Source of the DNA: an uncultured Poribacteria bacterium
Lineage (GTDB): Bacteria; Poribacteria; WGA-4E; WGA-3G
Assembly: GCA_958296135.2 (NCBI GenBank)
Contig: CATQHZ020000001.1
Location: forward strand, 2,720,001-2,784,000
Length of the DNA stretch: 64,000 bases
Direction: 5' to 3'
Below the pieces are notes generated by a model. The model searched no databases, had not been told where the DNA came from, and saw only the letters and a list, made by a program, of their open reading frames with translations. Made by a program: the position numbers and the translations under genes. Shown here piece after piece: positions 7,233-64,000 of this stretch (positions are counted from its first letter, which is position 1; every line of letters starts with the position of its first letter).

Positions 7233-9902
7233 ATGATGCTAATTGAACGCTTTGCGTCAATACGAAACATCAAAATCATCAGTATTCTGCTCATCCTGCT
7301 CAGCGTTGCCGTGTTGCATGTCAAACTCTATCGGTTCGCCGAGGTGACACACGACGGTGTCTTGCAGGTACTCGTCTGCCTCGGCCGCGTCGTTGCGATA
7401 GACACCAGCGACGAGGCAGACCAGGTTTTAACGTTCCGCATCCTCTCCGGGCAGTTTCGCGGCGAGACGGTCGCGGTAAATAACATCTGGACCGGGCGCG
7501 CCTTCGGAGATCGCGTGCTCAGCCGCGGCGATGTGCTGTTCCTCGATATCCCTCTCCGCGACCCGAGCAACCCCACGCTTGACAACGTCCGGATGCGCGA
7601 ATACTTCCGTACCCCGTTCCTGCTTTATCTCGCTGGCGCGCTCGGCGTGCTGATGCTCCTCGTTGCAGGCATGAAAGGGGTGCGCGCGATTTTGACGCTT
7701 TTTGTCACCGCACTCGCCGTGCTTTACCTGCTCGTTCCGTTGACTATCGCTGGTTATAACCCTATCGCCATCGCGCTCGGCATCGCCGCCTTGCTGACAT
7801 TGACGACGTTCGTCCTGATTACTGGTTTCAGCTTCAAAGTGGTCTCCGGTGTACTCGGCACACTTGGAGGCTTGGCAGCGGTGGGCGTGCTGTCTGTGCT
7901 CAGCCAACATGCGATGGTGCTGACTGGACTCGCGCAAGAATTCGGCTTCCTAGAGCTCGGCATCGCACTGTGGCGGACACCGGAATCGCATCACTGGAAT
8001 TTCACCGGCATCCTTTCCGCCGGCATCATCCTCGGTGCTGTCGGCGCAATGATGGATGTCAGCATGTCCATCTCCTCAAGTGTGCATGAAGTCAAACAGG
8101 TAAACCCAAACATCACCGTGCGGCAATCCATCCGTGCGGGGTTGAACGTCGGCCGCGATATTATGGGAACGATGGCGGATACGCTCATCTTCGCCTACCT
8201 CGGGGCGCACATGATGACGATGCTCCTCCCGCGCATCGATTTCCCAGAGGCGGGTGTCCTCTACCCCTTCCTCAGGCTTGTCAACGACGAAGCCACCGCG
8301 GTCGCCATCATCCAAGCCGTCGTTGGCACAATTGGATTGGTGCTAACAGTGCCGATTGCGGCGACGATAGCCGGATTCCTCACCCAATACGCGAAAGTAG
8401 ACAAAACCGATATTCACGAAGACCTGCCTTCAGAAGAGGAGTTAGAGGAACTTTTCCGTGCCGATAACCCGCGCAGCGCATCTCGCATCGCCGTGCCGAT
8501 TGCGATGGTGCTGGTGCTAGTCGGCACGACTTTTGTTTACCATCGCGTCCAACGGAATTCCGCCACGATTCGCGAACAACGCGACGAACAGGGAGGCATC
8601 CTCACGCAGTCGGAGTATGCGAAGGGCAAAGTTATCCGATTGCTGGAATCTAGTGGCGATTTCCTTTTTACCGTATCGGATGAGAATGTCACCGCCAATC
8701 TGGACAACCGCGTCTTTTCACCTGCTTTGCGAGAGGCGTTTGAAAAGCACAACATCCCTATTTCCAATGAGGTCACGGTTTCCATCAAGCCGTGGAAAGA
8801 CAGCCGCTGGCTTCTCTCCGATGAAAAATACGAGCAAACCTATAGTGTTCGCGCGCCCCCCTATTTCCCCAACACCGTAGCGCGAGGGCCTGTCTCTGGC
8901 GAACCCTCGGTCTCGCAATTGCATGTCTACGATACCAAGATCGAGCATCATATCCTTGAAGTTGAGATGCTAAGCGGCATGTATGAAGAACAACGCATCG
9001 TCCTCCGAAACATCGTCAATCATAACATGCCGTTGCTGAGCATCCCTGCGGAGCCGGGAGATATCGTGCTGTGCCGCGTTGGCGGAGACCCCGAGCGCAT
9101 CGGGCTTGTCAACATCGTCCAAGAATATGGACGCGATGGATTTTTGGTATGGATGGTAGGCGGGATGTTGCTGCTCATCATCCTCGTCGGTAGAATTGAG
9201 GGTATCCGCACAGCGGGTGCCATGCTGATTTCGGCAACGGTTATTTACTTTTTTATGCTGCCGCTCATCTCGCAAGGCGCGAACGCCGTGTTTATCGTGA
9301 CGCTCACCTCCGGCGCGATTGCGTTCGTATCGCTCGTGTTCGTCATCGGTCCGAGCCGGAAGACGTTTTCCGCGGTGCTCGGCACGATGGGCGGCATCCT
9401 CGTCGCTGGGCTCATCGTCCTCTTCGCGCAACAGCACCTCCATTTTTCTGGGTTAGAAAACGCCATTTCAGCGGACATCGTCGAAGCGACGCGCACGCCG
9501 CCGTTTGACTTCGTGCAAATTTTGCTGGCAGGGATGTTGATGGGGGTATTAGGCGTAGCCGTTGATGGTGCGATTGAAGTCGCATCCAGCATGGAAGAAA
9601 TCCGGCGCGCGAATCCGAACATGCCGACGTGGCGGCTCATCGCCTCTGGGCTCAACGTCGGCACCGATATCCTCGGCACGATGGTAAACACATTAGTGTT
9701 TGCGTATCTCGGCGTAGAGTTGCTGCTCGTCATCACGATAGCTGCGCCGAACCTAGACTTTTTCAAGTCGCCGCCGGCGCAGTTATTGAGCATCGGCGTA
9801 GTGTCAGCGGAGATTGTGCGGTTGTTGGCAGGGACGTTGGGATTGGTGTTGGCCATTCCGATCACGGCGATGATCTGCGCGTTTTGGAATCCGAAGCGGT
9901 AG
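7233..9902 (+). CDS. YibE/F family multi-pass membrane protein with two YibE/F domains
   Basis: Two repeats of GA(M/V)xDxxxxI(S/A)SS..E...NP...G(L)NVG(R/T)DI(M/L)GTM..TL(I/V)FAYLG. Confidence 0.85.
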   Translation: MMLIERFASIRNIKIISILLILLSVAVLHVKLYRFAEVTHDGVLQVLVCLGRVVAIDTSDEADQVLTFRILSGQFRGETVAVNNIWTGRAFGDRVLSRGDVLFLDIPLRDPSNPTLDNVRMREYFRTPFLLYLAGALGVLMLLVAGMKGVRAILTLFVTALAVLYLLVPLTIAGYNPIAIALGIAALLTLTTFVLITGFSFKVVSGVLGTLGGLAAVGVLSVLSQHAMVLTGLAQEFGFLELGIALWRTPESHHWNFTGILSAGIILGAVGAMMDVSMSISSSVHEVKQVNPNITVRQSIRAGLNVGRDIMGTMADTLIFAYLGAHMMTMLLPRIDFPEAGVLYPFLRLVNDEATAVAIIQAVVGTIGLVLTVPIAATIAGFLTQYAKVDKTDIHEDLPSEEELEELFRADNPRSASRIAVPIAMVLVLVGTTFVYHRVQRNSATIREQRDEQGGILTQSEYAKGKVIRLLESSGDFLFTVSDENVTANLDNRVFSPALREAFEKHNIPISNEVTVSIKPWKDSRWLLSDEKYEQTYSVRAPPYFPNTVARGPVSGEPSVSQLHVYDTKIEHHILEVEMLSGMYEEQRIVLRNIVNHNMPLLSIPAEPGDIVLCRVGGDPERIGLVNIVQEYGRDGFLVWMVGGMLLLIILVGRIEGIRTAGAMLISATVIYFFMLPLISQGANAVFIVTLTSGAIAFVSLVFVIGPSRKTFSAVLGTMGGILVAGLIVLFAQQHLHFSGLENAISADIVEATRTPPFDFVQILLAGMLMGVLGVAVDGAIEVASSMEEIRRANPNMPTWRLIASGLNVGTDILGTMVNTLVFAYLGVELLLVITIAAPNLDFFKSPPAQLLSIGVVSAEIVRLLAGTLGLVLAIPITAMICAFWNPKR

Positions 9903-9943: not shown

Positions 9944-9952
9944 TGTGAAGGG

Positions 9953-17211: not shown

Positions 17212-17643
17212 TTACACCATCCATCGTTCGCCGATGCCGAGGGCGGCGGTTAACGCCTGCAGCAGCACTATTTCTGGCGAGGCACCGACAAATCGGCGAT
17301 GCGCGTCAATGTAGGTGCCGTAATCTGCCGCCCATTCGCGAAGACAGGTCTGGTATTCCCATCCATAGACGGTTTGACGGAATACGGCGGTTTCTGGATA
17401 CGGAAGCTTCTCCGCCAAGAGCGCGAGGAGTTGGGCGCGCGTGGGGAGCCATAAGTTTTCCGGTTCCTCCGGTTCTGCCAGTAGAGCGCGAGGGACAGGC
17501 CCTCGCACTACGGGTTGGGCTGATTCTGCCAGGCACTCGCGAGAGACAGGCCCTCGCACTACGGGTTGGGGACATTTTTCCGGGCGCAGTGCCTGAATTT
17601 CGGGGTGGCGGCACATCGCGACGTATTCTTGCGGCAGGTTCAT
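17212..17643 (-). CDS. Hypothetical protein with two in-frame REP-derived repeats
   Basis: Operon position; QPVVRGPV repeated with a 51-bp period. Confidence 0.7.
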   Translation of the reverse strand: MNLPQEYVAMCRHPEIQALRPEKCPQPVVRGPVSRECLAESAQPVVRGPVPRALLAEPEEPENLWLPTRAQLLALLAEKLPYPETAVFRQTVYGWEYQTCLREWAADYGTYIDAHRRFVGASPEIVLLQALTAALGIGERWMV

Positions 17644-22313: not shown

Positions 22314-24185
22314 CTACGGGCTCCTATTTCTACGGGCAAAAAGCCGCCCTTGTTCATGCGCAAACGCGGTATTTAGATACGTTTTTCCATCTGCATGCCA
22401 AAAATCGACAGCGGTTTTCGTGCCTTCCAGCAGACAAAATTCCTCCACACTTTCCGACTTGCCGCGTATCTCAACCAAGACATCGATCGGTGCACTCTCC
22501 GCGTTGTAGAGATAGAACATGTCGGCATCTTCAGTCACTCGGTGCTGGAACTGGAGTGCGAGCGTCGGTTCATTCACCGGCTTCGCATACACCGAAATGG
22601 CTGGGGTTATCCATTTTCGGAGATACTTTTTCAGTGCGGCCTCCCGTTCGCCCAATGGGCCTCGGAGGATAGTTGTCCGCCGCCCATAGATGAGTTGTTC
22701 CAGTGGATACGGTTTTAATCCGATCCGTCCATTGAGCAGATATGGCACTGGTTCGTTCACTATCAATTTACCTTTCGCCTTCGTCAATGCACGCAGGCAG
22801 TTCACTGTCTCTTCCTGCAGTGAGAGGCAACTCGGCAGTAGCACAACGCGATAAACCTCTGCGCCAGGCGCGCTTTGCTCCGCTGGATTGGCAAAACAGA
22901 GACAGCGACGTTTCCTATCTATCGTGGCAAAACGCAGTTCTCGTTCGGAAACAATCCGAAAGTCGTAACCCAACTGCGATACCGTTTGGCACAGCCACCC
23001 CCACGCTTTCGTCAGATAGTTCCACTGCTTCTCATCAGGTTTTGTCCAGAGACTCTGCGTCGGCGCAACCATCAGCAGTTGCCGCTTTGGATGTCCAACC
23101 GCCAACAGGTTCTCACAAAACGACGGTGGACTTCCAGAAACCCACACGTTAAAGCCAAGGGCAACATCTTGAAGCGACTGCTTTAGTTGATGTGAACCTT
23201 TCCGCGAAATCCCCGCGTAGCGTGCATTGCCAGAAACCCATTTGGAGACGACGCACCGTCTAGCCGTCCCTCCTACGGGAGGCGCGCGTTGCAAGCGCGC
23301 TTTTCCCGCGTCAGACACAGTGAGAATCGGGCAATCTACCTCTGCCAGCATCGCACCCAATTCAAATTCCAACGCTCTTGCACTTTCAGGAATACTCACA
23401 GCGAACTGTAGTCCCTCCTGATGACAGAAATCACGCACGCCGGCGAGAAAGCAATTCGCGAATTGCGTCGTCACCGCTCGCCAAAACGCGTTCCGAACTG
23501 CCGCCGAGTCGTAGGTATCATAAAAGATGAGCGGTAAGTATGCCTGAACCGTGTCTTTCAGCGTCCGACTCCACGGAACCGAATCGGCATCTGATTCTAA
23601 GATAGATAAAAATCGCGGCAATTCGCAGGCGAAACCGATGAGGGATGCTTTCCCGTGAGCGTTGAGGGAACCCATCAGCACTTGTTCTATGAATACCGAA
23701 ACGCCGTTCTCACTCAGCAAATCTGGTAGTCCTTGCGCTGCGGTTTGACGGAGGTGCAGCACGGTTCGCCCGCGCAACCGTGCTGCAATTGCGAGCTCCC
23801 CTGCCACACATCGCTGCACATACTCGCTAATATGATAGCAGGGGGCATCCGCATGCGGCTGTGCAATCAGATAGTGTCGGTGAAATTCGCGATGCTGCTC
23901 CCACTGCCGAAGCACCGCCTGAATGGCTATCGCCCCCTCTGCTTCGCCGAAGGTTCGGCCTACCGCATTTAATCGATAGCGCGTTTGCAGCAAGGCAGAA
24001 GGCAGTTGTATCCACGCGTGCACGCCCCGTGGCACCGTCGATTTTTGTGTGCCTAGCCACGGAAGCAAGACACCACTTGCGATATGTGAGCGATTTGTGT
24101 CCACGAGCCATCCGCCTCTGATTCCATGGTTTCCGATAGGCGCGCTTTGGCAATGCGCAGTTTCAAACCGCGTCTGCCGGGGCAA
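22314..24185 (-). CDS. Hypothetical protein, possibly a degenerate glycoside hydrolase-like protein; start uncertain
   Basis: Long ORF; GYDFRIVSE...YRVVLLPS resembles GATase-like domains of GH proteins; 5' end overlaps a REP. Confidence 0.45.
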   Translation of the reverse strand: MPRQTRFETAHCQSAPIGNHGIRGGWLVDTNRSHIASGVLLPWLGTQKSTVPRGVHAWIQLPSALLQTRYRLNAVGRTFGEAEGAIAIQAVLRQWEQHREFHRHYLIAQPHADAPCYHISEYVQRCVAGELAIAARLRGRTVLHLRQTAAQGLPDLLSENGVSVFIEQVLMGSLNAHGKASLIGFACELPRFLSILESDADSVPWSRTLKDTVQAYLPLIFYDTYDSAAVRNAFWRAVTTQFANCFLAGVRDFCHQEGLQFAVSIPESARALEFELGAMLAEVDCPILTVSDAGKARLQRAPPVGGTARRCVVSKWVSGNARYAGISRKGSHQLKQSLQDVALGFNVWVSGSPPSFCENLLAVGHPKRQLLMVAPTQSLWTKPDEKQWNYLTKAWGWLCQTVSQLGYDFRIVSERELRFATIDRKRRCLCFANPAEQSAPGAEVYRVVLLPSCLSLQEETVNCLRALTKAKGKLIVNEPVPYLLNGRIGLKPYPLEQLIYGRRTTILRGPLGEREAALKKYLRKWITPAISVYAKPVNEPTLALQFQHRVTEDADMFYLYNAESAPIDVLVEIRGKSESVEEFCLLEGTKTAVDFWHADGKTYLNTAFAHEQGRLFARRNRSP

Positions 24186-26837: not shown

Positions 26838-27119
26838 CTATGCTTTTTCTGTGTGTTCGGGCGGCACGCTGTGAGCGCGCGTCTCTTGATATTCGCGGTT
26901 CAAATTCTCAATGCATTGCCCACAGAAGCAATAGACTCTGCCGTAGCCGCCAACCTCTTTTTCAAGCAGCTGTTCCATCGGAAATTCGTTTTGGCAGAGC
27001 GCGCACACCTCCATCGGGACTTTCAGGCGCGCTTCGTCATCCGCCTCGCGCCGGGATATGAAATGCAAAATCAGCCAAACCGCAATCGGGATGAGGACGA
27101 CAAAAAAAATAAATAGCAT
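26838..27119 (-). CDS. Small membrane protein with CxxC...CxC.xC metal-binding motif
   Basis: N-terminal TM helix; CALC...CFCGQC. Confidence 0.65.
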   Translation of the reverse strand: MLFIFFVVLIPIAVWLILHFISRREADDEARLKVPMEVCALCQNEFPMEQLLEKEVGGYGRVYCFCGQCIENLNREYQETRAHSVPPEHTEKA

Positions 27120-37783: not shown

Positions 37784-39619
37784 TCAAATCTTTTTTCGGG
37801 TGGAATGTGTTGCCTGGTCCCGATTCAATTTCCGCCTCGCGCGCCAATACGCAAACTGCCGCAGATAATAGCCCACATTTTTACGGATATTCACAAAATC
37901 CTGAATGAATTGGCACTTTCCGCCGATCACAATCAACTCACGTTTCGCGCGCGTCATGGCGACATAGAAGACGCGCCGCTCCGCTTGGATATCGTCGCTA
38001 CGATGCGGGAAATGCCGGCCAAGCGTGTTTTGGACGAGGAGCACTCGCTCGTATTCACATCCCTTCGCTTTGTGGATAGTAGTTATCTCTACCGAACCGG
38101 GAGGCCCGCTTTGGACGCGCGCTCGGCGGAGAATCTTTTTGAGTTCAGCAACTTCATAGTTAGTGCGAGCGAGGATGCCAGTCTCCCGCCGCCCTGCTAA
38201 TTCTGCCAATAGGATTTCGGCTAGCGTTTCGGGTGTTGTCTCCACAACGTTTATCTCAAACTGCATCGGGTTTTGGGCGCGGAGGTTTTTCTTGATGCGA
38301 CGGAGGTTTTTCTCCATGCGAGGCACGTTCTTCTCAATTAAGGCTCGCGCATGCTCAACGATGGTTGACGTGGAACGGTAGTTGAGCGTGATTTCGTATT
38401 TTTTGACATCGCGTCGACTGGCGAACGTCTGCATAATCTCCGAATTGCCGCCGCGAAACCCGTAAATCGCCTGATCATCGTCGCCGACAGCAAACAGATT
38501 CTCCGACAATAGCGAAATGAGCCGAAAATCGGTTGGGGCAATATCCTGAAACTCATCCACCAGCACATACGGATATTGATCTACGTAAGTCTCCCGTAAG
38601 TCCGGGCAAACTTCTAGGAGGTGCGCTGCGTAGATGAGCATGTCCTCAAAATCGATGGCGTTCGCCTCCGTTTTAACCTTCTCGTATTTCTCGGCGAAGG
38701 CGCGGGCAACCCGGTCATTGAGAGAAGTCGGGTCGAACAGCCCAGTTTCAACCTGCCGTTTGGCGCGCATAACTACCTCTTTTATCGTGTCAAACTGGGC
38801 GCGAAGGTCTTCAAAATCGAGTTCTCTATCAAGATGTGCAGTGTAAGCGATGCCGAAATGCTGGCAGAACATCTCCAACATGAGTTGGTTACTATACCGT
38901 TCGCGCAACGGATCTGCGCGATTAAACACACCAGCACGGGCTCTATAGAACGAAATCCAGCCCGCCTCGCGGCGATTCGCATCACGGCCGGCAACCCATT
39001 CCAGCACCTCAAAATTGAAGTTATCAACTCCTTCGGCACGGATGGATTGCCGAAGTCTATCGTTTGAGGAGTAACTGAAGTGTTCCCCTCTCCGGCGTTC
39101 CGGGTTCATCGTTTGCCCGATGTAACACCGCCCGGTCTTCTTGCTCGCAATTTTATAGAGAGCAACTCTGGTAGCAGCAGTTTCGCGTGCCAGTTGCTGT
39201 CGCTCTTCCTGAATGACTTGTTCAATTTGCGAAGCCCAGATTTGCGGTTTTTGCGAGAATCCGGCACGAGCGTAGTGCGCCATCACAATATCTTTGCCGA
39301 ACGCGTGCAGCGTGCGAATGGTAACGGGAGCCGCACTTCTCGCTGAAACGCGAGTCTCCATTTCCTCAACTGCTTTCTTATTAAAGGCGATGGCGAGGAT
39401 ATCCGATGGCGGCACATTGTGCGCGTGGATAAGGTTTAGGATGCGTTCGGTGATGACCGTGGTTTTCCCACTTCCAGGCCCGGCGACAACGATGGCGGGG
39501 CCTGTGACATGATTCACGGCTTTTCGCTGGTTTTTGTCGAGTTGCATTTGTTTATTACTCAGAGCAATCCAGTTCTCCCCGCTGTAGTTCGGAATCGACC
39601 CGTGTCGAACAGTGGACAT
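37784..39619 (-). CDS. UvrD/Rep-like SF1 helicase with an inserted GIY-YIG domain
   Basis: AGPGSGKT, VDEFQD, VGDDDQAIYGFRG, NYRS, TIHKAKGCEY, YVAMTRAK; insert LYKI...YIGQT...R..EH...E. Confidence 0.85.
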   Translation of the reverse strand: MSTVRHGSIPNYSGENWIALSNKQMQLDKNQRKAVNHVTGPAIVVAGPGSGKTTVITERILNLIHAHNVPPSDILAIAFNKKAVEEMETRVSARSAAPVTIRTLHAFGKDIVMAHYARAGFSQKPQIWASQIEQVIQEERQQLARETAATRVALYKIASKKTGRCYIGQTMNPERRRGEHFSYSSNDRLRQSIRAEGVDNFNFEVLEWVAGRDANRREAGWISFYRARAGVFNRADPLRERYSNQLMLEMFCQHFGIAYTAHLDRELDFEDLRAQFDTIKEVVMRAKRQVETGLFDPTSLNDRVARAFAEKYEKVKTEANAIDFEDMLIYAAHLLEVCPDLRETYVDQYPYVLVDEFQDIAPTDFRLISLLSENLFAVGDDDQAIYGFRGGNSEIMQTFASRRDVKKYEITLNYRSTSTIVEHARALIEKNVPRMEKNLRRIKKNLRAQNPMQFEINVVETTPETLAEILLAELAGRRETGILARTNYEVAELKKILRRARVQSGPPGSVEITTIHKAKGCEYERVLLVQNTLGRHFPHRSDDIQAERRVFYVAMTRAKRELIVIGGKCQFIQDFVNIRKNVGYYLRQFAYWRARRKLNRDQATHSTRKKI

Positions 39620-40335: not shown

Positions 40336-41169
40336 CTACGAAGCCTTGGCATAATTGACAGCGTTTTTGAAAATCGCTACGCCATCGCCTTCTTCCGGGA
40401 GCGGTTCGCGTGTCCACCGAGGATGGTGCCATTTCGTGAGATACCGCTCAGGATGCGGCATCATCCCGAAGATACGCCCCGTCGCATCGCAGATACCCGC
40501 GATATTCGCATCGGAACCGTTAGGGTTGTCGGGGTATGCTACCCCGTCATAAGGACAAGTTTCTCTCTTCGCCCGCGACGTTGACGAGGTGTAGCGGAAG
40601 ACGATTTGACGATGCGTTTCCAATTGTTCTAACACCGCCGCCGGCGCAGTGAACCGGCCCTCGGCATGCGCGACAGGAAGATAGAGGTGTTGTTTGAGCC
40701 CTTTTGTAAAGACGCACGGGTTTCCCTGTTGTGTCTCCAGCGTTACCCAACGGCACTCGAATGTGGCGGAGGTATTCATCGCTAAGGTGGCTTGTTGTGG
40801 GGAGAAACCGCGGTGAAACCCGTTGACTTTCGGCAGCAACCCTGCCCGGACCAGCACTTGAAACCCGTTGCATATCCCGATGATGAGTTTGCCATCGCTA
40901 ATGAATTGGGTGAGAGCATCCGTCAGTTTGTGCTTCATCTCTGTCGCAAGGAGAATGCCGGCAGAAATATCGTCGCCGTAGGAGAAGCCGCCGGGAATCG
41001 CCAAGATTTGATAATCTTGTAGGCAGGTCCTCTGGTCCCGATTTCTTGATACAAGGTTTTGGATATGGACTAACGCTGTTTCGGCACCGGCGAGTTGGAA
41101 GGCGGCATCTGTCTCGGCATCGCAGTTCGTCCCTGCCGTGCGTAAGATAAGGACTTTCGGTTTCTTCAT
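40336..41169 (-). CDS. purQ: FGAM synthase glutaminase subunit
   Basis: PGGFSYGD, GICNGFQ, PVAHAEG, NPNGS, MMPHPER. Confidence 0.95.
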   Translation of the reverse strand: MKKPKVLILRTAGTNCDAETDAAFQLAGAETALVHIQNLVSRNRDQRTCLQDYQILAIPGGFSYGDDISAGILLATEMKHKLTDALTQFISDGKLIIGICNGFQVLVRAGLLPKVNGFHRGFSPQQATLAMNTSATFECRWVTLETQQGNPCVFTKGLKQHLYLPVAHAEGRFTAPAAVLEQLETHRQIVFRYTSSTSRAKRETCPYDGVAYPDNPNGSDANIAGICDATGRIFGMMPHPERYLTKWHHPRWTREPLPEEGDGVAIFKNAVNYAKAS

Positions 41170-46149: not shown

Positions 46150-47574
46150 TTATTCGTCGCGGGATTTGGCTTGCAACTTTGCCGCCTCGCCCGGGTTGCC
46201 GATGTGCATCGTATTGTATGCCTGCTCGGAACTCTTGAACGGGCCGACACCTTTATGGCCGTGCCAATCGCCCTGCGTCATAATCGGGTTGGTTAAACCG
46301 GTCTCCCGTTCGCGCCGGAGGATCCAATTTTTCATCCGCGTCTCTAGCACGTTGACGATGTCCGGATGCGACTCAACGAGGTTGTTGTTCTCGTCCGGGT
46401 CTTGGATTAAGTTATAGAGCTCCACGGGCGGCTTGAAATGAAAGTCCGGTTCCAGTGCCACGATGAGTTTCCATTCAGGTGTGCGCCAGCCGTGCTTCCG
46501 CATCCACGTGCATTCCGTGATGTAAAATTCGCTATCAAACGAGGCAACTTCCCCATTTACCATTGACATGAGGCTTTGTCCATCAAACGCGATGTCAGTT
46601 TCAACACCTGCCAATTCAAGGAGTGTCGGCACCAGGTCTTTGTGTTGGTTATAGCCGGAAACTCGTTTGCCAGCAGGCACGCGCCCTGGATAGCGGATAA
46701 TCAGTGGGACGTGCAGGGTGACATCGTAGAGGCCGTGATGGTCAAACCAACACTCGTGGTCATAGAGGGTTTCACCGTGGTCGCCGTTGATAACGATAAT
46801 AGTCTCGTCCATGACACCGTGCGTCTCCAGCGCGTTGAAAAGCGTCTGAATGCAGGCATCCATATAGGCGATCGCACCATCATACTGCGCGACGACGTAG
46901 TCCTTATCCGTAATCCCGGCCGGCATCCACGAAGCGAAGTAATCACAGAACGGCTTGAAGGACATCACCGGCTCCATAGACTTATTGCTCGGGTCGCACT
47001 CGTCTCCGTGGTAGAACATCCGTTCATAAGGCGCGGGCGGCAAATAGGGAGAGTGCGGATCCATGTGCCGCAGGAACAGGAAAAACGGTTCCCCGTTTTC
47101 GGGCCCCGAGGTCCCGCCTACACGGCTTTCGGCAACCAGCCGATTCAGTTCCGGAACGGCGATGTTGTTGAGACTCTGCGCTTTCGGGCTGCGCCCGGTC
47201 TCATCGCCGCCCCAACCCGAGTAATTGAGATAGGTATCAAAGCCACGCGAACTCGGTCCGCCGAAGCCGATGCAGCTGGTATTGTAACCCACCTTTTTCA
47301 GAATCTCCGCTAACGTTTTGACTTCTTCACGAAGCGGACCTTGGTGCCGCAGCGCGACAACCTGCGTGCTGAACGTATCCAACCCTGTCAGCATCGAGGC
47401 ATAAGCACTTGTCGTCGGGATGTGGGGGCTGTAGGTTCGTTCAAAAAGCGTTCCGCCTTGCGCGAACCTATCGATGTGCGGTGTCGTCAGGCGGTGATAC
47501 CCGTAGCAGCTCATGTGCGTGGCGAGGAGCGAGTCAACGCCCATCAGTACGATATTCGGATATTTTGTTCCCAT
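46150..47574 (-). CDS. Sulfatase/alkaline phosphatase superfamily protein
   Basis: PNIVLMGVDSL, TPHID, DPHSPY, GDHGE, VPLII, ELYNL..DP.E. Confidence 0.85.
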   Translation of the reverse strand: MGTKYPNIVLMGVDSLLATHMSCYGYHRLTTPHIDRFAQGGTLFERTYSPHIPTTSAYASMLTGLDTFSTQVVALRHQGPLREEVKTLAEILKKVGYNTSCIGFGGPSSRGFDTYLNYSGWGGDETGRSPKAQSLNNIAVPELNRLVAESRVGGTSGPENGEPFFLFLRHMDPHSPYLPPAPYERMFYHGDECDPSNKSMEPVMSFKPFCDYFASWMPAGITDKDYVVAQYDGAIAYMDACIQTLFNALETHGVMDETIIVINGDHGETLYDHECWFDHHGLYDVTLHVPLIIRYPGRVPAGKRVSGYNQHKDLVPTLLELAGVETDIAFDGQSLMSMVNGEVASFDSEFYITECTWMRKHGWRTPEWKLIVALEPDFHFKPPVELYNLIQDPDENNNLVESHPDIVNVLETRMKNWILRRERETGLTNPIMTQGDWHGHKGVGPFKSSEQAYNTMHIGNPGEAAKLQAKSRDE

Positions 47575-53842: not shown

Positions 53843-55804
53843 TCAACGGTAAAACGAATAAACCGAAACACCCCAAATCAGCCGGACCAGCACCCAAGCA
53901 CCCCCGACGATAAATTGCCCGAGAATCAGCCCCAAAAAGAGCGGTAACACCCGATGATACAGACGGATGCCGCCAAATCGTAAGATGATGCTCTTAATCG
54001 CCCAACTTATCAGCACGGAAAACCAAAGCCAGCCAAACGTCCAGATACTGCTCGCAACGGCATAGCCGGTGGGATGAAAGGGGAACATCGGGAAACGGGT
54101 GCGCAGCCACCACAGCAAACCGGTGAACAGAAAGCCTGCACCCATGAAAATAACCGCAGGGATGTTCGTTTCGGTTGGGTAATAGAGCCATGAGCGGAGC
54201 ATGTTGTAACCGCCGCTACCCAAACCCGGATTCGCGCCGATGTTATAGGAGACAACCAGATACGCCCAGAACGAGGCAAGGATACCAAAAAAGATGGCGC
54301 ACATCATCGCCACTACCATGCGCCCAGCGCGCATGTTCGCTACCTCAACGAGTTTGAATCCCTCCAGCGTATGGGGCATCGGATGCGCGCGATACCCACG
54401 ATTAAAGGCGAAATAGAGCGACATCATCGTCAGACTCGGCGGCGGAATCGGACGCGAACCGAGCGCGTCGATGATGAACTGCCGCGGATTTGCGACAAAC
54501 ATCTCGTGTGTCGGTGGGCCGACTTCAGCGCGCACGCGCGTAATGCCTAACGCAAGCAGGTAATAGATGGCGAAATAGAGGGCTATCATCCAGACTGCCA
54601 TGCCGCCTTGATTCGAGAAAATGAAGAGAAAAAGCACACCACCGATTAACCCTGCCACCGGCCAGCGGTAATCGGTTGAATCTTGCATTTCTTCAGAAGA
54701 ACCGGTAGACGCGCGCCGGAAGCGCGCAAAAGAACCTATCAGGCCTTTGAAAACGGCATAAAAGTGCTTACGCCCGCCGTAAAGCCCAAAACAAGCGATG
54801 GCGAGATACGCGCCGACTCCCTGAGGGCCGTCATAAGGGAACCCCGGCAAAACTTGTAGGCCCATCGCCCTGCCGAGGATGCGCTCGCCTTTCCAGAAAA
54901 GGTAAAAAAACCACAGAGAAAACGACATCTCCAGCGGCATCAAGAACGCAAGCCCCACCCCGAATGAGAGGATATAGACGGGTGTCCACCCCATCGCATC
55001 CCACGGCTTTTCGGTGAAATAGATGCCCAAGTCTGCTTTACGCACCGGGATTTCGGGAAACGTCGGAAAGAAGGCGTGGATACCGTTAATCAGATCGATG
55101 CTTCCCGCAATCGCGAACCCCAGCCACAACATTTTGTTTTTGAAGAGCCGCCCATCCGAGTGTGTCATCTCTACTGGCAAGCGGACAATCGGATACGTCA
55201 ACCGCTCCCGTTCAATCCACTGCTTGCGGAGAAGTAAATCGATGCAAATCATCACCCACATCAGCACGGACAGAAAGACAGTCCACCATAAAATCGGTTC
55301 CCACCACGCGGAGAGATACCTTCCCGTGTAAAAGGTGGTATCGCCATCGTAAAAATCTTGCAAAACGGAGAGTTCGCTGAGCGTCATCCAATTCGGTAGG
55401 TATCGCCAGAAGAGTTGCTGCCATTCGTTTTCAGGCGTGGCAAACCAGAAGCCGTTCGGGATAACGGGAACGACGGTTTGCATCATGTCATGCCCCGCGA
55501 TAGCTGAGGAGATGGACAAGATGACATAGATTGTGAGCAGCTCACCCTGCCGGAGGGCAAACCGCGGCAGCAGCCATTTGAACAGGAAATTGAGGCATGT
55601 CAACACCGTCAGCGTCACTACCACGTTGTAAATCAGCGACATCGTGGTGGGCAAAGTGCTCCAGTAACGGAGGTGGTTTGCCATGATAAAATAGGTGTTC
55701 GGCAGAATCAGGAGAACCCCAAGCAGAATCGCGCGAAAGGTGACACCGGGATGCCTATTTTGAGAGTGTGGATGTTGCACGTGGAGTTCTGTGTTGTTTT
55801 GCAT
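53843..55804 (-). CDS. Large multi-pass membrane protein (DUF6785/DUF6784-like, putative transporter)
   Basis: ELLTIY, RKQW...ERLTYP, PFHPTGY, LFLGLILG. Confidence 0.75.
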   Translation of the reverse strand: MQNNTELHVQHPHSQNRHPGVTFRAILLGVLLILPNTYFIMANHLRYWSTLPTTMSLIYNVVVTLTVLTCLNFLFKWLLPRFALRQGELLTIYVILSISSAIAGHDMMQTVVPVIPNGFWFATPENEWQQLFWRYLPNWMTLSELSVLQDFYDGDTTFYTGRYLSAWWEPILWWTVFLSVLMWVMICIDLLLRKQWIERERLTYPIVRLPVEMTHSDGRLFKNKMLWLGFAIAGSIDLINGIHAFFPTFPEIPVRKADLGIYFTEKPWDAMGWTPVYILSFGVGLAFLMPLEMSFSLWFFYLFWKGERILGRAMGLQVLPGFPYDGPQGVGAYLAIACFGLYGGRKHFYAVFKGLIGSFARFRRASTGSSEEMQDSTDYRWPVAGLIGGVLFLFIFSNQGGMAVWMIALYFAIYYLLALGITRVRAEVGPPTHEMFVANPRQFIIDALGSRPIPPPSLTMMSLYFAFNRGYRAHPMPHTLEGFKLVEVANMRAGRMVVAMMCAIFFGILASFWAYLVVSYNIGANPGLGSGGYNMLRSWLYYPTETNIPAVIFMGAGFLFTGLLWWLRTRFPMFPFHPTGYAVASSIWTFGWLWFSVLISWAIKSIILRFGGIRLYHRVLPLFLGLILGQFIVGGAWVLVRLIWGVSVYSFYR

Positions 55805-56202: not shown

Positions 56203-56207
56203 AAACA

Positions 56208-57687: not shown

Positions 57688-57689
57688 AA

Positions 57690-60024: not shown

Positions 60025-60215
60025 CGAACCATCGGAATAAAAAATCGGGTATGAGGCATCCGGCCTCAAACCATTGATAGCATCGGTAAGGATGCAAAAC
60101 TTTGCATCGAGAACGTAGTCATCGACAACGGCGATGACAGCCCTGGTAAAATCACGTCATTGCACCAGGAACCTCAAACGCGTTCCGAAATACGAAAGAG
60201 ACAGAGGTACCATAC

Positions 60216-61451
60216 GTGGAATTGAAAATCAGCGAGCTGATAAGTAAATACCGGCATAAAGGCAGAAGTCAAGAGAAACACCTCGTTGAACGGCAGCTGA
60301 ACGCTTATCACTTGGCGCGCGCCGTCTTGCATGCACCCGAAAGCCGACCGATCGAACTCGTCACACAACTCAAAAAGGACATGGGCGTGAGTCGTCTCCC
60401 CTTTCGCGTTGTCGACGAATTAGACCGGTATCGCCTCGGGCCCAGAAAACGCGTCACCTGGGCAGAACAGATTACCGAAATCGGGCAATGCCTCTGCGAA
60501 TTCGCAACCGGCGACCCGGCAGACTGCGACCATCAGGCGTTGTATGAGCAGGCGAAACGCTACCTCGCCGCCCCATCGATAGAGGAATACACGCACCTCG
60601 CACCGCACGACGCACGGCCGATAGAACCGAAGGCGATTCTCTACGCTTTTTATGCCGAACTGCCAGAGACAGTGAGCTACAAAGCCATCCTTCACGATAC
60701 CGCTCGGCTGGCGAATTTTAAGCAGACGAAAACCCTCTTGGATGAACTCGTTGAACTCATCGCGCGAGAGAGAGGGCTCCGTCCCAAGAAGTCTGCACAC
60801 GAACGCGCCCTCGGCGGCATCGCCGAAACGCGGGGGCTCCTTGAATCTTTGACGCACCGAAGCACCGCGCCCATCACTTCTTCTCCGATGCCTGAGGACG
60901 ACATCCCCTTTGAGCTCATTGAGGATGAGAATGTCATGGCGGAAGAAGAGGCACTCCACGAAAACGCAGACCTGCGCGCCTCCGCGGAAATCGCGCGGCA
61001 GGAACTTGAAGTTGTCAAAGAAGAACTTGAGCAAGTCAGGGAAGAAGCGGGGCAGGAAGCCGCCCTCGCCTTCTTCCAAGAGATGAATTCCGGGAAACAC
61101 AGCAACTTGCTGGACCAGTTTCTCAAGGCGGAAGAGCTCGTCAAGGGTTTAAAGAAAAATGGGATAGAGATTCCGCAGGAAATTGAACTCATCCCCATTA
61201 TCATCCGCATGTTTAACCGCTTCCTCAAAACCCAAGGCATCCGCCCCCAAGCAGTTGTCGGGGAAAAGAAGGAGATTACCCTCAACGAATCTGATGAATA
61301 CGAATACATCGGTTCGGAATGGAAAGATCCGGAGGAAACGAAGACAGTGGAAGTCATCTCCGCCGGATGGCTCTACAAAGGCACGCTCACAGGCGATGAG
61401 AGTGAGCCTATCGTCATTAACAAACCGAAAGTTCAGGAGGTAACCTCATGA
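60216..61451 (+). CDS. Protein with an unknown N-terminal domain and a GrpE-like C-terminal region
   Basis: Coiled coil, LLDQF helix, then GIRP...VGE...VEVISAGW.Y.....I.KPKV; ATGA overlap with the Hsp70 gene. Confidence 0.6.
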   Translation: MELKISELISKYRHKGRSQEKHLVERQLNAYHLARAVLHAPESRPIELVTQLKKDMGVSRLPFRVVDELDRYRLGPRKRVTWAEQITEIGQCLCEFATGDPADCDHQALYEQAKRYLAAPSIEEYTHLAPHDARPIEPKAILYAFYAELPETVSYKAILHDTARLANFKQTKTLLDELVELIARERGLRPKKSAHERALGGIAETRGLLESLTHRSTAPITSSPMPEDDIPFELIEDENVMAEEEALHENADLRASAEIARQELEVVKEELEQVREEAGQEAALAFFQEMNSGKHSNLLDQFLKAEELVKGLKKNGIEIPQEIELIPIIIRMFNRFLKTQGIRPQAVVGEKKEITLNESDEYEYIGSEWKDPEETKTVEVISAGWLYKGTLTGDESEPIVINKPKVQEVTS

Positions 61452-64000
61452 AATATTGGGTCATCGCGCCAATGGAATCCACCATCCCTGAAGAATTGTT
61501 CCAGAACGCTTGGCAACACGACAAACAACATGGAACAATCGCCGTAGGCTGGCCCGTCCATACGCAGCACGGAACACCCATCTCGCCTGCAGGAGTCCCT
61601 CCTGCAGTCCGAGGGCAGGTGTCCCCTACCGACCAGCTGGCGACTCTATCTGGGTACGGAACCTTTGAAGATTTCCAAGACTACTTCAAGAATTTTAACC
61701 AAGAATGTCAACTTGACTGGGGCCCCCGGGCAGCAAAAATCGTGTGGGAATTCCATCGCGAAATTCAGATAGGGGACAAGGTCATCGCACGGCTCGGGTT
61801 AAGCAAGATTCTGGGCATCGGCACCGTTACCAAAACCGCCTACTACGATTGGCCGCAAGCGATAACTCGCCTGGGAACCTCCACCCCCATTCCCGAGGTG
61901 GACTATTCCCACGTTCGGCCGCGGTTCATCGAAGTCAACTGGGAACACACCGGAGAATTTCCAGCCAAATTGGCATGGAGACGCAGTGTTCAGGAAATCA
62001 CCAGCCAGCAATTTCACGAGGTGCTGGCTGGGTTGAACCTCGAAGCAGTTCCTATAGATTCAGAGCCCCCGAGCCGAACTGAAGCACCGGACCTCGCATC
62101 CCAAGCCTATCCGGAATCCACGCCGGAGACGGTTCAGCCGCACCCGCCTGTAACAGAGGAAGCAGAGCCAACACGAAGGGCTTCGGCACCCATTGAACAT
62201 GAAACCGGCAGAGATGGGAGTCAGCCGCAATCGGCACCTCAGCGGAGCACAACAGAGCCAGAGGATACGACAACGTCAAGGATGCAGTCACCTCCCTTTG
62301 GCCGTTCAACAGGGCTGAAGGCGATTCTACCGCACGAGGTGGACAGACAGCACAAACCTTCCGTTCGTGCCGCAATCCCTGCGCCGGATGCTCCAACCGA
62401 ACCCGCGCACCCGAACTATTACATCGGCATCGATTTAGGCACGACGAACTCTGTCATGGGATGGGGCACGCTCAATCCACAGACGAACAAGTTAGAACCC
62501 AAAGTCGTGGAAATTAACATGATGATTGAGCGGGGCGGTATGGGGAAAAAGGAGTTGTTACCGTCGTGCGTCTATTTCAAAGAAGGAAGCCCACCGATTA
62601 TCGGGGAATACGCGAAGACGATGATAGGACGGCAGACAAGCCGGGTAGTGAAATCTGTTAAGAGCGACATAGGTACACCGAAGCAGTATGAGTTCGATAA
62701 CACCACTTATAGCGCAGCGGAAATCTCATCGCAGATTCTCAAGCACCTCGTCGCCAGTGCAAAGACCTTGTTCGGATTCATGCCCGATGATGTCGTCATC
62801 ACCGTGCCTGCCTCCTTTGATTCGGATATGCGGGCAGCCACGATTGAAGCCGCGCGCCTCGCCGGATTCCGCACACACGAAGACGATGGAAGTCCACGGA
62901 ACATTTTGCTCGATGAACCGCGCGCCGCACTCTACGATTTCATCAATAGACAGGACAAAGGGGAAATCCCTGAAACGCTCATCAACTTCCACACGCCGAA
63001 ACTAGTCCTCGTCTTTGACCTAGGCGGCGGCACCTTAGATGTCTCTTTACACAGAGTCTCTTATGAGGACCACGAATTCCGTCTGAACATCGAAGATTTG
63101 GCCGTCTCGCGGTATACGCAAATCGGTGGAGATGATTTCGACCAGAAACTTGCCGACCATTTCTTCGCAGCCTACGCGAATAGGCTCCCCAATAACCTTA
63201 ATGATTTCCAGATGAATCTGATTAAGAGTGACTTCCTGGAATTCGCAGAACAAGCCAAGATTGATCTGAGCAGCGAGATTGAAACGAGCAAATTAATGCG
63301 GTATTTTGACCCGGATACAGTTGAAACGACGATTATCCAAACGCCGTGGGAAAATCTCGTGTTTCAATACGATTTGACGCTAACCGAATATGAAGACATC
63401 ATTGAGCCGCTCCTCGCGAATCAACTCACGCTGGAATCGGTCGCGCAACTTGACACACTGCCCGCCTGTGATAACATCATCTACCCTATCCTTGATGTGT
63501 TACGAAAAGGGGAACGCAAACTCGGGACGATGCCGCAGGTCGATGCCGTGCTCCTCAACGGCGGCATGACGAAACTCCACACTATCCAAAAACGGTTGGA
63601 GACGTTCTTCGGTTTCCCACCGATTACTGCTGGCGATGCCGACAAAGCTGTCGCACGCGGCGCAGTGGTGTATCACTACGACTTGCACAGAGGGATTAAA
63701 CCGGCACGCATCCTCAACGATACTATCGGCATTGAAATCGCTGGTGGTAGAGTCAAACCGCTTGTGGAAGCAGGAACGATTCTGCCGTTGTCGGCACCGC
63801 AATCGATTGAGGGACTGCAGGTAAGCGACGGCGCGCCCTCCTTGCGGCTGCCGTTTTACCTCGGCAGCCGCAAGGATACCAAACCACCGAATCGACGCAT
63901 CCTTGAACGGAACGTGCGATTTAGGCGGCCGCTCCTCAAAAATGAACCCATCTACATACAAGTGCAGGTGGACGAGCGCGGCATTATGAACGTCGAAGGG
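61448..64000 (+). CDS. McrB-N/EVE-like domain + Pro-rich linker + divergent Hsp70 (runs off the window)
   Basis: Manual translation is open for 851 codons: MKYWVIAP...AVGW...WEFHREIQIGDKVIA...GIGTV...VNW; from 62417 IGIDLGTTNS, VITVPASF, DEPRAA, FDLGGGTLDVS, GGDDFD, LNGGMTK, AVARGA. Confidence 0.88.
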   Translation, partial: MKYWVIAPMESTIPEELFQNAWQHDKQHGTIAVGWPVHTQHGTPISPAGVPPAVRGQVSPTDQLATLSGYGTFEDFQDYFKNFNQECQLDWGPRAAKIVWEFHREIQIGDKVIARLGLSKILGIGTVTKTAYYDWPQAITRLGTSTPIPEVDYSHVRPRFIEVNWEHTGEFPAKLAWRRSVQEITSQQFHEVLAGLNLEAVPIDSEPPSRTEAPDLASQAYPESTPETVQPHPPVTEEAEPTRRASAPIEHETGRDGSQPQSAPQRSTTEPEDTTTSRMQSPPFGRSTGLKAILPHEVDRQHKPSVRAAIPAPDAPTEPAHPNYYIGIDLGTTNSVMGWGTLNPQTNKLEPKVVEINMMIERGGMGKKELLPSCVYFKEGSPPIIGEYAKTMIGRQTSRVVKSVKSDIGTPKQYEFDNTTYSAAEISSQILKHLVASAKTLFGFMPDDVVITVPASFDSDMRAATIEAARLAGFRTHEDDGSPRNILLDEPRAALYDFINRQDKGEIPETLINFHTPKLVLVFDLGGGTLDVSLHRVSYEDHEFRLNIEDLAVSRYTQIGGDDFDQKLADHFFAAYANRLPNNLNDFQMNLIKSDFLEFAEQAKIDLSSEIETSKLMRYFDPDTVETTIIQTPWENLVFQYDLTLTEYEDIIEPLLANQLTLESVAQLDTLPACDNIIYPILDVLRKGERKLGTMPQVDAVLLNGGMTKLHTIQKRLETFFGFPPITAGDADKAVARGAVVYHYDLHRGIKPARILNDTIGIEIAGGRVKPLVEAGTILPLSAPQSIEGLQVSDGAPSLRLPFYLGSRKDTKPPNRRILERNVRFRRPLLKNEPIYIQVQVDERGIMNVEG

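What the first reader, a model, noticed from the sequence alone, without database searches (positions are those of the whole stretch)
8875..61630. REP palindromes inserted in-frame inside many protein genes
Seen: the intergenic GTAG repeats also occur inside ORFs without breaking frame. Examples: YibE/F 8875-8909 (TVARGPVS); the 143-aa gene at 17488 and 17539 (PVVRGPV x2); ~23276 (KARLQRAPPV); ~26858; UvrD ~38097 (RARVQSGPPG); purQ ~41018 (RDQRTCLQ) and degenerate ~40552 (SRAKRETCP); sulfatase ~47099 (RVGGTSGP); DUF6785-like ~54702 (ARFRRASTG); Hsp70 fusion ~61601 (PAVRGQVS). Both orientations occur. Known: Rickettsia palindromic elements behave this way, whereas GTAG REPs are usually extragenic. 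Inference: several repeat families are generating new peptide loops here, even in core enzymes.
Basis: partly seen in the sequence, partly recalled or inferred. Interest (0 to 1): 0.75.

Follow-up and report, generated by a model that had tools for sequence, protein, structure and literature searches.

The report
REP repeats inserted in-frame in genes
Short mobile GTAG-tagged hairpin repeats that normally sit between genes have landed in frame inside well over a hundred intact protein genes of this Poribacteria-like bacterium, adding small extra loops even to core enzymes; the phenomenon is already known from other bacteria, but it is unusually frequent here.

Summary
The chromosome carries at least 7 GTAG-type REP families: 2,495 loci at nhmmer E<0.01, against 0 hits in a codon-block-shuffled chromosome. 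It also has two RAYT-like transposase genes, each flanked by REP arrays.

- 10 lie in frame in ORFs, and all 10 coincide with insertions missing from orthologues of other genera. One of these (Hsp70 fusion) rests on a single outgroup.
- 8 are demonstrably REP copies: YibE/F, the 143-aa gene (two copies), the 623-aa gene, purQ aa44, sulfatase, DUF6785.
- 3 are lineage-specific inserts whose REP origin is not shown: UvrD-like, purQ aa198, Hsp70 fusion.
- 1 (26858) is upstream of the gene and is not a REP.

Genome-wide, 174 REP copies (7%) in 130 ORFs sit in an open frame with coding signal on both sides, against 47% of random sites. In a random 40 of these ORFs, 37 have Pfam domains and 18 carry the REP peptide inside a domain (LpxK, PanB, class I tRNA synthetase and others).

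The families are genus-specific, and some inserts are species-specific, so the process is recent.

Intragenic GTAG REPs were described by Di Nocera et al. 2013 (70 rows for Opitutus terrae), and Rickettsia RPEs behave alike. This is therefore a new and very dense member of a known kind.

The parts
8873..8903 (+). Family A REP (CCGTAGCGCGAGGG..., degenerate 3' arm) read as TVARGPVSGE. It sits in the linker between the two YibE_F domains of ORF 7233-9902.
   Evidence: nhmmer E=1.7e-7. Pfam finds 2 YibE_F stretches. The segment is present only in the window and G001 (VARGPVPR, E=5e-9) and absent in 10 orthologues of other genera.
17487..17564 (-). Two family A REPs (17487-17513 and 17537-17564), read as PVVRGPVPR and PVVRGPVSR, inside the 143-aa gene 17212-17643.
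   Evidence: E about 1e-6 each. The gene is real: orthologous open frames of 119-127 aa in 3 other genera lack the REP-bearing segment, while G002 carries it.
23275..23303 (-). Family B REP read as KARLQRAPPV in the conserved 623-aa protein (ORF 22314-24185, no Pfam family).
   Evidence: E=3e-3. The G001 copy at the same site has E=1.7e-6. The 12-aa segment is absent in 3 other genera.
38096..38125 (-). B-like remnant (RARVQSGPPG) in the UvrD-like helicase ORF 37784-39619. REP origin is plausible but not shown.
   Evidence: A 6-7 aa insertion relative to G012 and G005, with a diverged counterpart in G002. Only 6.2 bits to profile B.
41019..41041 (+). GTAG REP of a C-like subfamily, antisense to purQ (ORF 40336-41169, minus strand), read as NRDQRTCLQ at about aa 43-51.
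   Evidence: 25 relatives at <=4 mismatches in the chromosome against 0 in the shuffle. G001 and G002 carry a related REP in the sense orientation at the same site, and its 23-mer has 171 relatives at <=3 mismatches. Other genera lack 7 aa here.
40543..40587 (-). 14-aa (42-nt) insertion in purQ found only in this genome (STSRAKRETCPYDG). REP origin not shown; there is a weak likeness to family E.
   Evidence: Absent in G001, G002, G005 and G012. 0.1 bits to profile E. Predicted as a disordered loop, with pLDDT<50 at residues 199-206.
47099..47121 (-). GTAG REP inside a 27-nt insertion (RVGGTSGPE) in the sulfatase ORF 46150-47574, within the Pfam Sulfatase envelope.
   Evidence: 41 relatives at <=4 mismatches against 0 in the shuffle. 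The insertion is shared with G001 only and is absent in G002 and 3 other genera. Pfam envelope covers residues 6-324.
54705..54727 (+). B-like GTAG REP, antisense to the DUF6785 gene (ORF 53843-55804, minus strand), read as ARFRRASTG inside the DUF6785 envelope.
   Evidence: 37 relatives at <=4 mismatches against 1 in the shuffle. The G001 orthologue has a clear family B copy (TRLQTAPTD, E=6e-5). G002 and 3 other genera lack it.
61556..61630 (+). 12-aa insert region (…PAGVPPAVRGQVSP…) near the N-terminus of the Hsp70-fusion ORF 61448->64000. REP origin not shown.
   Evidence: Present in the window, G001 and G002, and absent in the only outgroup found, G004. No profile or 23-mer support.
26840..26900 (.). 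Site '~26858': NOT part of the phenomenon. It lies upstream of the pfkB-family gene 25785-26828.
   Evidence: An in-frame stop lies between it and the ATG. No REP hit at E<=10, and no hit even at E<=100000 on the 61-nt segment.

Best explanation
These are copies of GTAG-tagged REP elements: 23-40 nt hairpins with a 5' GTAG. They belong to several genus-specific families, presumably mobilised by the genome's RAYT (REP-associated tyrosine, Y1/HUH) transposases. Most copies are intergenic. A minority landed inside protein-coding DNA.

Purifying selection removes insertions that break the frame, bring a stop or hit structured cores. What survives is in-frame, stop-free copies of 18-42 nt per single insertion; the double-REP segment of the 143-aa gene adds 36 codons. 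They sit in linkers and surface loops, where they are translated as 6-14 extra residues. Recurrent peptides are:
- family A: VARGPVPR, RGTGPRAT
- family B: ARLQSAPTG
- family C: PVGETSRSR, IETGRALL
- family E: GGYRNPPLQ

The copies then decay by point mutation and small deletions. The process is ongoing: some inserts are shared by the genus, some by two species, and some are unique to this genome.

Shown: the identity of the repeats, their in-frame position in intact conserved genes, their absence from orthologues, and the REP-flanked RAYT genes.

Inferred: that RAYTs move them, that selection is the filter, and that the peptides are translated and mostly neutral.
For: - Repeat families: 2,495 loci at E<0.01 against 0 in shuffled DNA. 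1,354 GTAG-plus-perfect-hairpin sites against 25 in the shuffle.
- RAYTs: RAYT1 scores 125 bits to NCBIfam REP_Tyr_transpos (cut-off 80) and is flanked on both sides by C/G REP arrays. RAYT2 scores 56 bits and is flanked by D/A arrays.
- Window genes: 10 of 11 sites are in frame, and all 10 are lineage-specific insertions in otherwise conserved proteins.
- Genome-wide: 174 of 2,495 REP loci (7.0%), in 130 ORFs, have an open frame and a dicodon coding score >10 in the same frame in both 240-nt flanks. Random 30-nt sites pass in 1,418 of 3,000 cases (47%), so REPs are depleted in genes but far from absent.
- Random 40 of the 130 ORFs: 37 have a Pfam family at E<=1e-5. In 18 a REP peptide lies within a domain: 17 inside the best-stretch envelope, and PanB between the two halves of a split match.
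- PanB and LpxK inserts are absent from orthologues.
- The same DNA element is read in up to five frame and orientation combinations. For family A the counts are 22, 14, 8, 5 and 2, which points to a DNA-level rather than protein-level origin.
- Genus specificity: the exact 27-mer of family A occurs 161 times in G000, 49 in G001 and 331 in G002, and 0 times in 28 genomes of 12 other genera.
- The three purQ insert sites are coil in a confident model (pTM 0.90).
Against: - No RNA or protein data show that the REP codons are translated.
- Three window sites (UvrD-like, purQ aa198, Hsp70 fusion) are inserts without statistical REP support.
- No RAYT was found next to families B, E or F. RAYT2 is below the NCBIfam cut-off.
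- Transposition by RAYT is inferred from the literature, not tested here.
- The 174/130 count rests on my own dicodon classifier. Only 40 of the 130 ORFs went to Pfam, and only 2 genes outside the window were compared with orthologues.
- Some copies are not independent events: three 848-aa WD40 paralogues carry the same C doublet at the same residues.
- In-gene copies are only slightly more degenerate than others for families A, B and E, and not for C.
- Family B uses one reading frame in 32 of 44 cases. A pure neutral filter does not obviously predict this.
Confidence: 0.85

Rival explanations
1. The REP peptides are not neutral passengers but recruited modules. Under this reading they serve as flexible Pro/Ser/Thr/Gly/Arg-rich linkers or recognition tags, and selection keeps particular frames because the peptide is useful.
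For: There is a strong frame bias. 32 of 44 in-gene family B copies are read as AR(L/F)(Q/E)SAPTG, and 22 of 51 family A copies as VARGPVPR. The same purQ loop carries a REP in all three species of the genus, in opposite orientation in this one. Some inserts are retained across the genus.
Against: The hosts are functionally unrelated proteins. Presence varies between sister species (DUF6785, sulfatase, PanB, LpxK). Copies decay, for example the YibE/F 3' arm, the UvrD-like remnant and purQ aa44. Frame bias is equally expected if only the most hydrophilic, loop-compatible reading is tolerated.
Confidence: 0.1
2. The REPs are not translated. Under this reading the ORFs are mis-called: fused neighbours, wrong starts or pseudogenes, with the repeats effectively extragenic.
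For: This is true for site 26858. Di Nocera et al. note that many N-terminal 'intragenic' REPs in other species are annotation artefacts (passage). The YibE/F REP sits between two YibE_F domains and so could look like a gene boundary.
Against: The double YibE/F protein is one open frame of 864-909 aa in the 22 full-length orthologues listed outside G000. Pfam envelopes straddle the REP in sulfatase, DUF6785 and purQ and in 17 of 40 sampled ORFs. Residues N-terminal to the purQ and Hsp70-fusion inserts are conserved. No stops occur, and coding signal lies in the same frame on both sides.
Confidence: 0.04
3. This is chance or compositional resemblance. Under this reading GC-rich loop-coding DNA merely looks like REPs, and the indels are ordinary loop length variation.
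For: Three window inserts have no significant REP similarity. The purQ aa198 loop also varies in length in unrelated lineages.
Against: There are 0 profile hits at E<0.01 in the shuffled chromosome against 3,169 real ones. The in-gene 23-mers have 25-41 relatives against 0-1 in the shuffle. Sister-species copies at the same sites reach E=1e-6 to 5e-9.
Confidence: 0.03

Closest known systems
Intragenic GTAG/CGTC REPs (Di Nocera, De Gregorio, Rocco 2013, BMC Genomics 14:522, PMC3733652)
   Same: Both are short GTAG-tagged palindromes associated with RAYT genes and mostly intergenic, with a minority lying entirely within ORFs of known proteins and encoding about 7-10 aa per unit. Singles, dimers and double hits per gene occur in both. 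The same kinds of host gene appear in their Opitutus terrae list: LpxK, ASPIC/UnbV, WD40, UvrA/helicases, and the FGAM synthase PurL (the pathway step to which PurQ belongs). I read passages and Additional file 3 part 1.
   Different: The REP families here differ in sequence and occur in another phylum; the nearest named relatives are Candidatus Poribacteria MAGs. The number is higher: 174 copies in 130 ORFs by a strict test, against 70 rows in 62 ORFs for O. terrae (my count of the listing). Here the insertions are additionally dated by orthologue comparison to genus and species level.
Rickettsia palindromic elements (RPE)
   Same: Both are palindromic repeats inserted in frame in unrelated metabolic genes and compatible with protein fold. 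The 2024 MITE review PMC10969869 states 44 integrations in R. conorii genes (passages read).
   Different: RPEs are about 150 bp per that review and have no known RAYT partner (recalled). The elements here are 23-40 nt GTAG REPs with RAYT genes. No sequence comparison with RPEs was made.
REPIN-RAYT systems of Pseudomonas and E. coli (Nunvar 2010 PMC2817692; Bertels and Rainey 2011 PMC3116915; seen as search listing and abstracts only)
   Same: Both show a GTAG plus hairpin architecture, hundreds of copies, RAYT genes flanked by their REPs, vertical lineage-specific families and tandem or inverted doublets.
   Different: Those systems are described as extragenic. Here about 7% of copies are inside genes, and at least 7 families coexist with only two RAYT-like genes found.

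Membership tests
GTAG-type REP / REPIN elements | Short (about 20-40 nt) imperfect palindrome able to form a GC-rich hairpin | tested here: met
   Family consensi come from 12-mer assembly. 1,354 sites show GTAG followed by a perfect stem of >=7 bp, against 25 in the shuffled chromosome.
GTAG-type REP / REPIN elements | Conserved GTAG tetranucleotide at one end | tested here: met
   Families A, B, C, D and G start with (C)GTAG, and family E with GTAAG.
GTAG-type REP / REPIN elements | High copy number, dispersed, mostly extragenic | tested here: met
   2,495 loci on a 5.0-Mb chromosome. 93% fail the in-gene test, against 53% of random sites.
GTAG-type REP / REPIN elements | Cognate RAYT (Y1/HUH transposase) gene flanked by the REPs | tested here: met
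   RAYT1 scores 125 bits to NF047646 (cut-off 80) with C/G arrays on both sides. RAYT2 scores 56 bits (below cut-off) with D/A arrays on both sides. No RAYT was seen beside families B, E or F.
GTAG-type REP / REPIN elements | Mobilisation by the RAYT (binding and cleavage of the hairpin) | not testable with these tools
   This needs biochemistry or mobilome sequencing.
Intragenic REPs in the sense of Di Nocera et al. 2013 | REP lies entirely within an ORF of >=120 aa that encodes a recognisable protein, in frame and without a stop | tested here: met
   Window. Genome: 130 ORFs of 252-2,923 aa, and 37 of 40 sampled have Pfam families.
Rickettsia palindromic elements (RPE) | Element of roughly 100-150 bp encoding a 30-50 aa peptide, found in Rickettsia | tested here: not met
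   Units here are 23-40 nt and encode 6-14 aa. The organism is Poribacteria-like. It works like an RPE but is not a member.
MITE | Terminal inverted repeats plus target-site duplication | tested here: inconclusive
   Codon-level junctions show no evident duplications, but the flanks have diverged, so this is not decisive.

The most novel reading that the evidence does not exclude
In this Poribacteria-like genus the REP-RAYT systems act as a continuing generator of protein surface-loop variation. The same permissive loops are hit repeatedly or turned over. The glutamine amidotransferase PurQ has three REP-bearing loops that differ among three sister species, including a REP in opposite orientation at the identical site. 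Particular reading frames are favoured. Under this reading, repeat invasion is a quantitatively important source of protein indels, possibly the densest case in any bacterium, and may be partly adaptive.
Probability: 0.25. Interest if true: 0.7.

Novelty: new member of a known kind. Interest (0 to 1): 0.5.

Why it matters
It shows, with orthologue-level dating, that extragenic palindromes can colonise coding DNA on a large scale in a free-standing 5-Mb genome. At least 130 genes are affected, including PurQ, PanB, LpxK, a class I tRNA synthetase and NAD synthase. This is not confined to reduced intracellular genomes such as Rickettsia.

Practical consequences:
- REP-derived segments can split or truncate domain matches. 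The PanB match is split in two.
- They will inflate apparent protein divergence.
- They give species-level presence/absence markers.
- They offer a natural catalogue of insertion-tolerant loops in many enzyme folds.

Tried and rejected
- Site 26858 was rejected as an in-gene REP.
- The seven profiles miss several window sites, which score 8.7 bits or less. A 23-mer neighbour count against a shuffled chromosome rescued three of them. It did not rescue the UvrD-like or Hsp70 sites, and no GTAG 23-mer could be taken for purQ aa198.
- My first family B seed was too palindromic and gave only 8 matches. I rebuilt it from 304 copies.
- One search failed on an nhmmer option and was re-run.
- The look-up of sequencing runs listed four runs of a single sample and study that hold the stretch. 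This may be the source sample, so it is not independent. No RNA holder is listed.
- The search of earlier findings returned nothing for this genome.
- Literature: 'Poribacteria' + 'palindromic' gave 31 papers. Judged from titles and abstract starts, the 10 listed concern sponge or marine microbiology and none mentions REPs. 'Poribacteria' + 'repetitive extragenic' gave 1 unrelated review. I therefore found no description of REPs in Poribacteria in that library. Subscription journals are not covered.
- Considered and rejected: assembly artefact, because the same in-gene sites recur in the separate assemblies G001 and G002; and protein-level motif spread, because one DNA element is read in up to five frames.
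- Not done: orthologue comparison for the other ~120 ORFs; a check of RAYT catalytic residues beyond the family match; a search for other Y1 or TnpB genes.
Full report
**Setting.** The window is C1:2,720,001-2,784,000 of a 5.19-Mb assembly in 4 contigs. C1 is 5.01 Mb with 54% GC. By purQ, the nearest named genomes are Candidatus Poribacteria MAGs at 63-70% identity. I therefore treat the organism as Poribacteria-like; this is an inference, because the genome itself is unnamed.

**The repeats are real and abundant.**
- GTAG-N-GCGAGGG occurs 945 times on C1.
- Greedy assembly of over-represented 12-mers gives at least seven families. Family A is CCGTAG[C/G]GCGAGGG-CCTGT-CCCTCGC, with longer nested variants. 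Family B is GGTAGGCGCG(C/G)TTT..AAA(C/G)CGCGCC. C, D, E, F and G are further GTAG or GTAAG hairpins.
- nhmmer profiles give 842, 698, 483, 450, 247, 114 and 335 hits at E<0.01, 3,169 in all. These merge to 2,495 loci.
- A chromosome shuffled in codon-sized blocks within 1.5-kb windows gives 0 such hits.
- A family-agnostic scan for GTAG followed by a perfect GC-rich stem of 7 bp or more finds 1,354 sites, against 25 in the shuffle. Of these, 236 lie outside the seven profiles, so the totals are underestimates.

**Transposase genes.** Two Y1_Tnp genes exist.
- RAYT1 (C1:3,734,399-3,735,221, minus strand) matches NCBIfam REP-associated tyrosine transposase at 125 bits (cut-off 80). Arrays of C and G REPs lie on both sides.
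- RAYT2 (C1:4,791,067-4,791,745, minus strand) scores 56 bits, below the cut-off. D and A arrays lie on both sides.

**Genus specificity.** The families are confined to the genus. The exact 27-mer of family A occurs 161 times in G000, 49 in G001 and 331 in G002. It occurs 0 times in 28 genomes of 12 other genera of the same family and order. Profile scans of about 30 kb from each of G004, G005 and G012 give 1, 0 and 0 hits.

**The eleven sites.** All but one lie in frame in an ORF. I compared each host protein with orthologues from two same-genus genomes (G001, G002) and three other genera (G004, G005, G012). For YibE/F the comparison used 11 orthologous loci.

1. **YibE/F, 8873-8903.** Family A, E=1.7e-7. 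The 889-aa protein with two YibE_F domains is a conserved single frame: the 22 full-length orthologues listed have open frames of 864-909 aa. The TVARGPVSGEP segment exists only here and in G001 (TPVARGPVPREP, E=5e-9). Ten orthologues of other genera lack it.
2. **143-aa ORF, two copies.** This is a real gene. The orthologous open frames in three other genera are 119-127 aa and align at both ends but lack the REP-bearing segment. G002 has the double REP plus extra tandem repeats.
3. **623-aa protein.** KARLQRAPPV is a family B copy (E=3e-3; the G001 copy has E=1.7e-6). It lies in a 12-aa segment absent from three other genera.
4. **Site 26858.** It lies upstream of the pfkB-family start, with a stop in frame, and has no REP hit. 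Rejected.
5. **UvrD-like helicase.** There is a 6-7 aa insertion relative to G012 and G005. Its peptide RARVQSGPPG resembles the family B reading ARLQSAPTG, but the DNA scores only 6.2 bits. REP origin is plausible but not shown.
6. **purQ aa43-51.** G001 and G002 carry a GTAG REP in the sense orientation. Its 23-mer has 171 relatives at 3 mismatches or fewer in this chromosome, against 0 in the shuffle. This genome carries a related GTAG REP in the antisense orientation at the same place (25 relatives at 4 mismatches or fewer, against 0). Other genera lack 7 aa.
7. **purQ aa195-208.** A 42-nt insertion unique to this genome. REP origin is not shown.
8. **Sulfatase.** A 27-nt insertion containing a GTAG hairpin (41 relatives against 0). 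It is shared with G001 only and lies inside the Sulfatase domain envelope.
9. **DUF6785.** A B-like copy (37 relatives against 1). G001 has a clear family B copy (E=6e-5) at the same site. G002 and three other genera lack it.
10. **Hsp70 fusion.** A 12-aa insert in all three genus members relative to the single outgroup found. REP origin is not shown.

The alignment also revealed a third purQ site. G001 and G002 carry a family B copy followed by an E-like unit (judged by eye), where this genome has a short remnant.

In an AlphaFold model of this PurQ (pTM 0.90, mean pLDDT 89), all three sites are coil between secondary-structure elements. The 14-aa insert has pLDDT below 50.

**Genome-wide picture.** I trained a dicodon log-odds model on 800 ORFs of 500 aa or more. 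In-frame 300-nt windows score 43 ± 17, and shifted frames score −101. A REP counted as in-gene only if one frame was stop-free across the REP ± 240 nt and scored above 10 in both flanks.
- 174 of 2,495 REP loci (7.0%) pass, against 1,418 of 3,000 random sites (47%).
- They fall in 130 ORFs of 252-2,923 aa. 94 ORFs have one copy, 30 have two, 4 have three and 2 have four.
- REPs are thus about 6.7-fold depleted in coding DNA, yet numerous there.
- Not all are independent events. Three 848-aa WD40 paralogues share one C doublet.

From a random 40 of the 130 ORFs (seeded draw), 37 have a Pfam family at E≤1e-5.
- In 18 a REP peptide lies within a domain. In 17 it is inside the best-stretch envelope. 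In PanB it lies between the two halves of a split match.
- The hosts are DUF790, DsbD_N, UPF0182, DUF6785, GT9, PolyA_pol (CCA-adding type), FtsJ, ABC_tran, LPG_synthase_C, tRNA-synt_1, UvrD_C, MmeI_Mtase, LpxK (two sites), ADH_zinc_N, DUF4175, UbiE, Amino_oxidase and PanB.
- In the remaining 19 with Pfam families, the REP lies in linkers or outside the listed envelopes.

Orthologue checks outside the window agree.
- PanB has a 24-aa insert with the family E peptide GGYRNPPLQ, unique to this genome.
- LpxK site 1 is unique to this genome. Site 2 is variable between this genome and G002.

**DNA-level, not protein-level.**
- Family A is read as VARGPVPR (22 copies), RGTGPRAT (14), ARDRPSRYG (8), EGQALALR (5) and RSARACPS (2). 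The sixth frame has a stop in the consensus and is unused.
- Family C uses five frame and orientation combinations.
- Family B is skewed: 32 of 44 copies read as AR(L/F)(Q/E)SAPTG.
- In-gene copies have slightly lower median scores than others for A (26.5 vs 29.9 bits), B (22.3 vs 26.7) and E (23.9 vs 28.2), but not for C (34.3 vs 30.8).

**Mechanism.**
- Shown: GTAG REP families with REP-flanked RAYT genes; in-frame copies in intact, conserved genes; absence from orthologues; gains at genus, two-species and single-species depth.
- Inferred from what is established for RAYT/REP and IS200/IS605-type Y1 transposases: single-strand, hairpin-guided mobilisation. A selective sieve then leaves only stop-free insertions that are multiples of three in tolerant loops and linkers, and mutational decay follows.
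- The family B frame skew and the re-use of the same purQ loop fit a strict sieve. They equally leave room for some recruitment of the peptides.

**Comparison with the known.**
- Di Nocera et al. 2013 (PMC3733652; passages and Additional file 3 part 1 read) state that REPs inside genes occur in several species. Their largest GTAG case is Opitutus terrae, with 70 rows in 62 ORFs by my count. It includes LpxK, PurL, UvrA, ASPIC/UnbV and WD40 proteins.
- A 2024 review (PMC10969869, passages) gives 44 RPE integrations in Rickettsia conorii genes.
- The present case is the same kind of thing in a phylum where I found no such report. It has roughly twice the O. terrae number under a conservative test, and direct evidence of recency.

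**Verdict.** This is a new, very dense member of a known kind.

Noticed in passing
G000:C1 whole chromosome, 250-kb bins: The orientation of family C REPs follows the sign of GC skew. Bins with positive skew (0.5-1.5 Mb) hold 19-44 minus copies against 4-6 plus copies. Bins with negative skew (2.0-2.75 Mb) hold 15-26 plus against 2-6 minus. This would fit strand-specific (replication-linked) insertion by a Y1 transposase, or gene-orientation bias. The skew changes sign several times along C1.
   Followed up: partly
window 40336-41169 (purQ) with L030 and L031: Sister species carry a GTAG REP in the sense orientation at purQ aa44, where this genome has a related REP in the antisense orientation. 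This could be independent hits on one permissive loop or an in-situ flip. A third purQ loop (about aa 109-127) holds a family B copy followed by an E-like unit in G001 and G002, but only a remnant here.
   Followed up: partly
window 37784-39619 (-): The UvrD-like helicase has a GIY-YIG nuclease domain (aa 154-227, E=7.8e-8) nested inside the UvrD-helicase N-terminal domain match (aa 27-401). This is an unusual architecture.
   Followed up: no
window 13863-14774: There are seven tandem copies of a 102-nt unit (34 codons, TPR-sized) inside ORF 13845-15410 (minus strand). Related 77-nt units occur at 15640-16229 in the neighbouring ORF.
   Followed up: no
window 7160-7204 and 60096-60140: A 45-nt repeat (82% identical) contains GTAG plus a GTCATCGAC/GTCGATGAC hairpin. 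It lies upstream of the starts of the YibE/F ORF (7233) and of ORF 60216-61451. The genome-wide GTAG-hairpin scan finds 3-4 copies of each of two variants, so this is a minor extra REP family.
   Followed up: no
G000 contigs C2-C4: C2 (143,886 bp) has 36.8% GC, against 54.4% for C1. C3 (17 kb) has 67% and C4 (15 kb) has 60%. These are probably foreign contigs in the bin, or an extrachromosomal element.
   Followed up: no
G000:C1 (genome-wide 12-mer assembly): A 30-nt unit, CTTTTAATCGCACCAGTTTGGAATTGAAAC, was assembled from a 12-mer that occurs 74 times. It looks like a CRISPR repeat.
   Followed up: no
L017 and L034 (genome G004, another genus): G004 has its own different inserts at the same UvrD-like and purQ loops, one of them containing GTAGCGCAAGG. 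Relatives may therefore carry their own REP families that also enter genes.
   Followed up: no
G000:C1:221439-223985, 224577-227123, 513547-516093: Three 848-aa WD40 beta-propeller paralogues carry the same family C REP doublet (IETGRALLQGEIETGRSLLRAAD) at aa 694-715. The REPs were therefore copied along with the gene.
   Followed up: no
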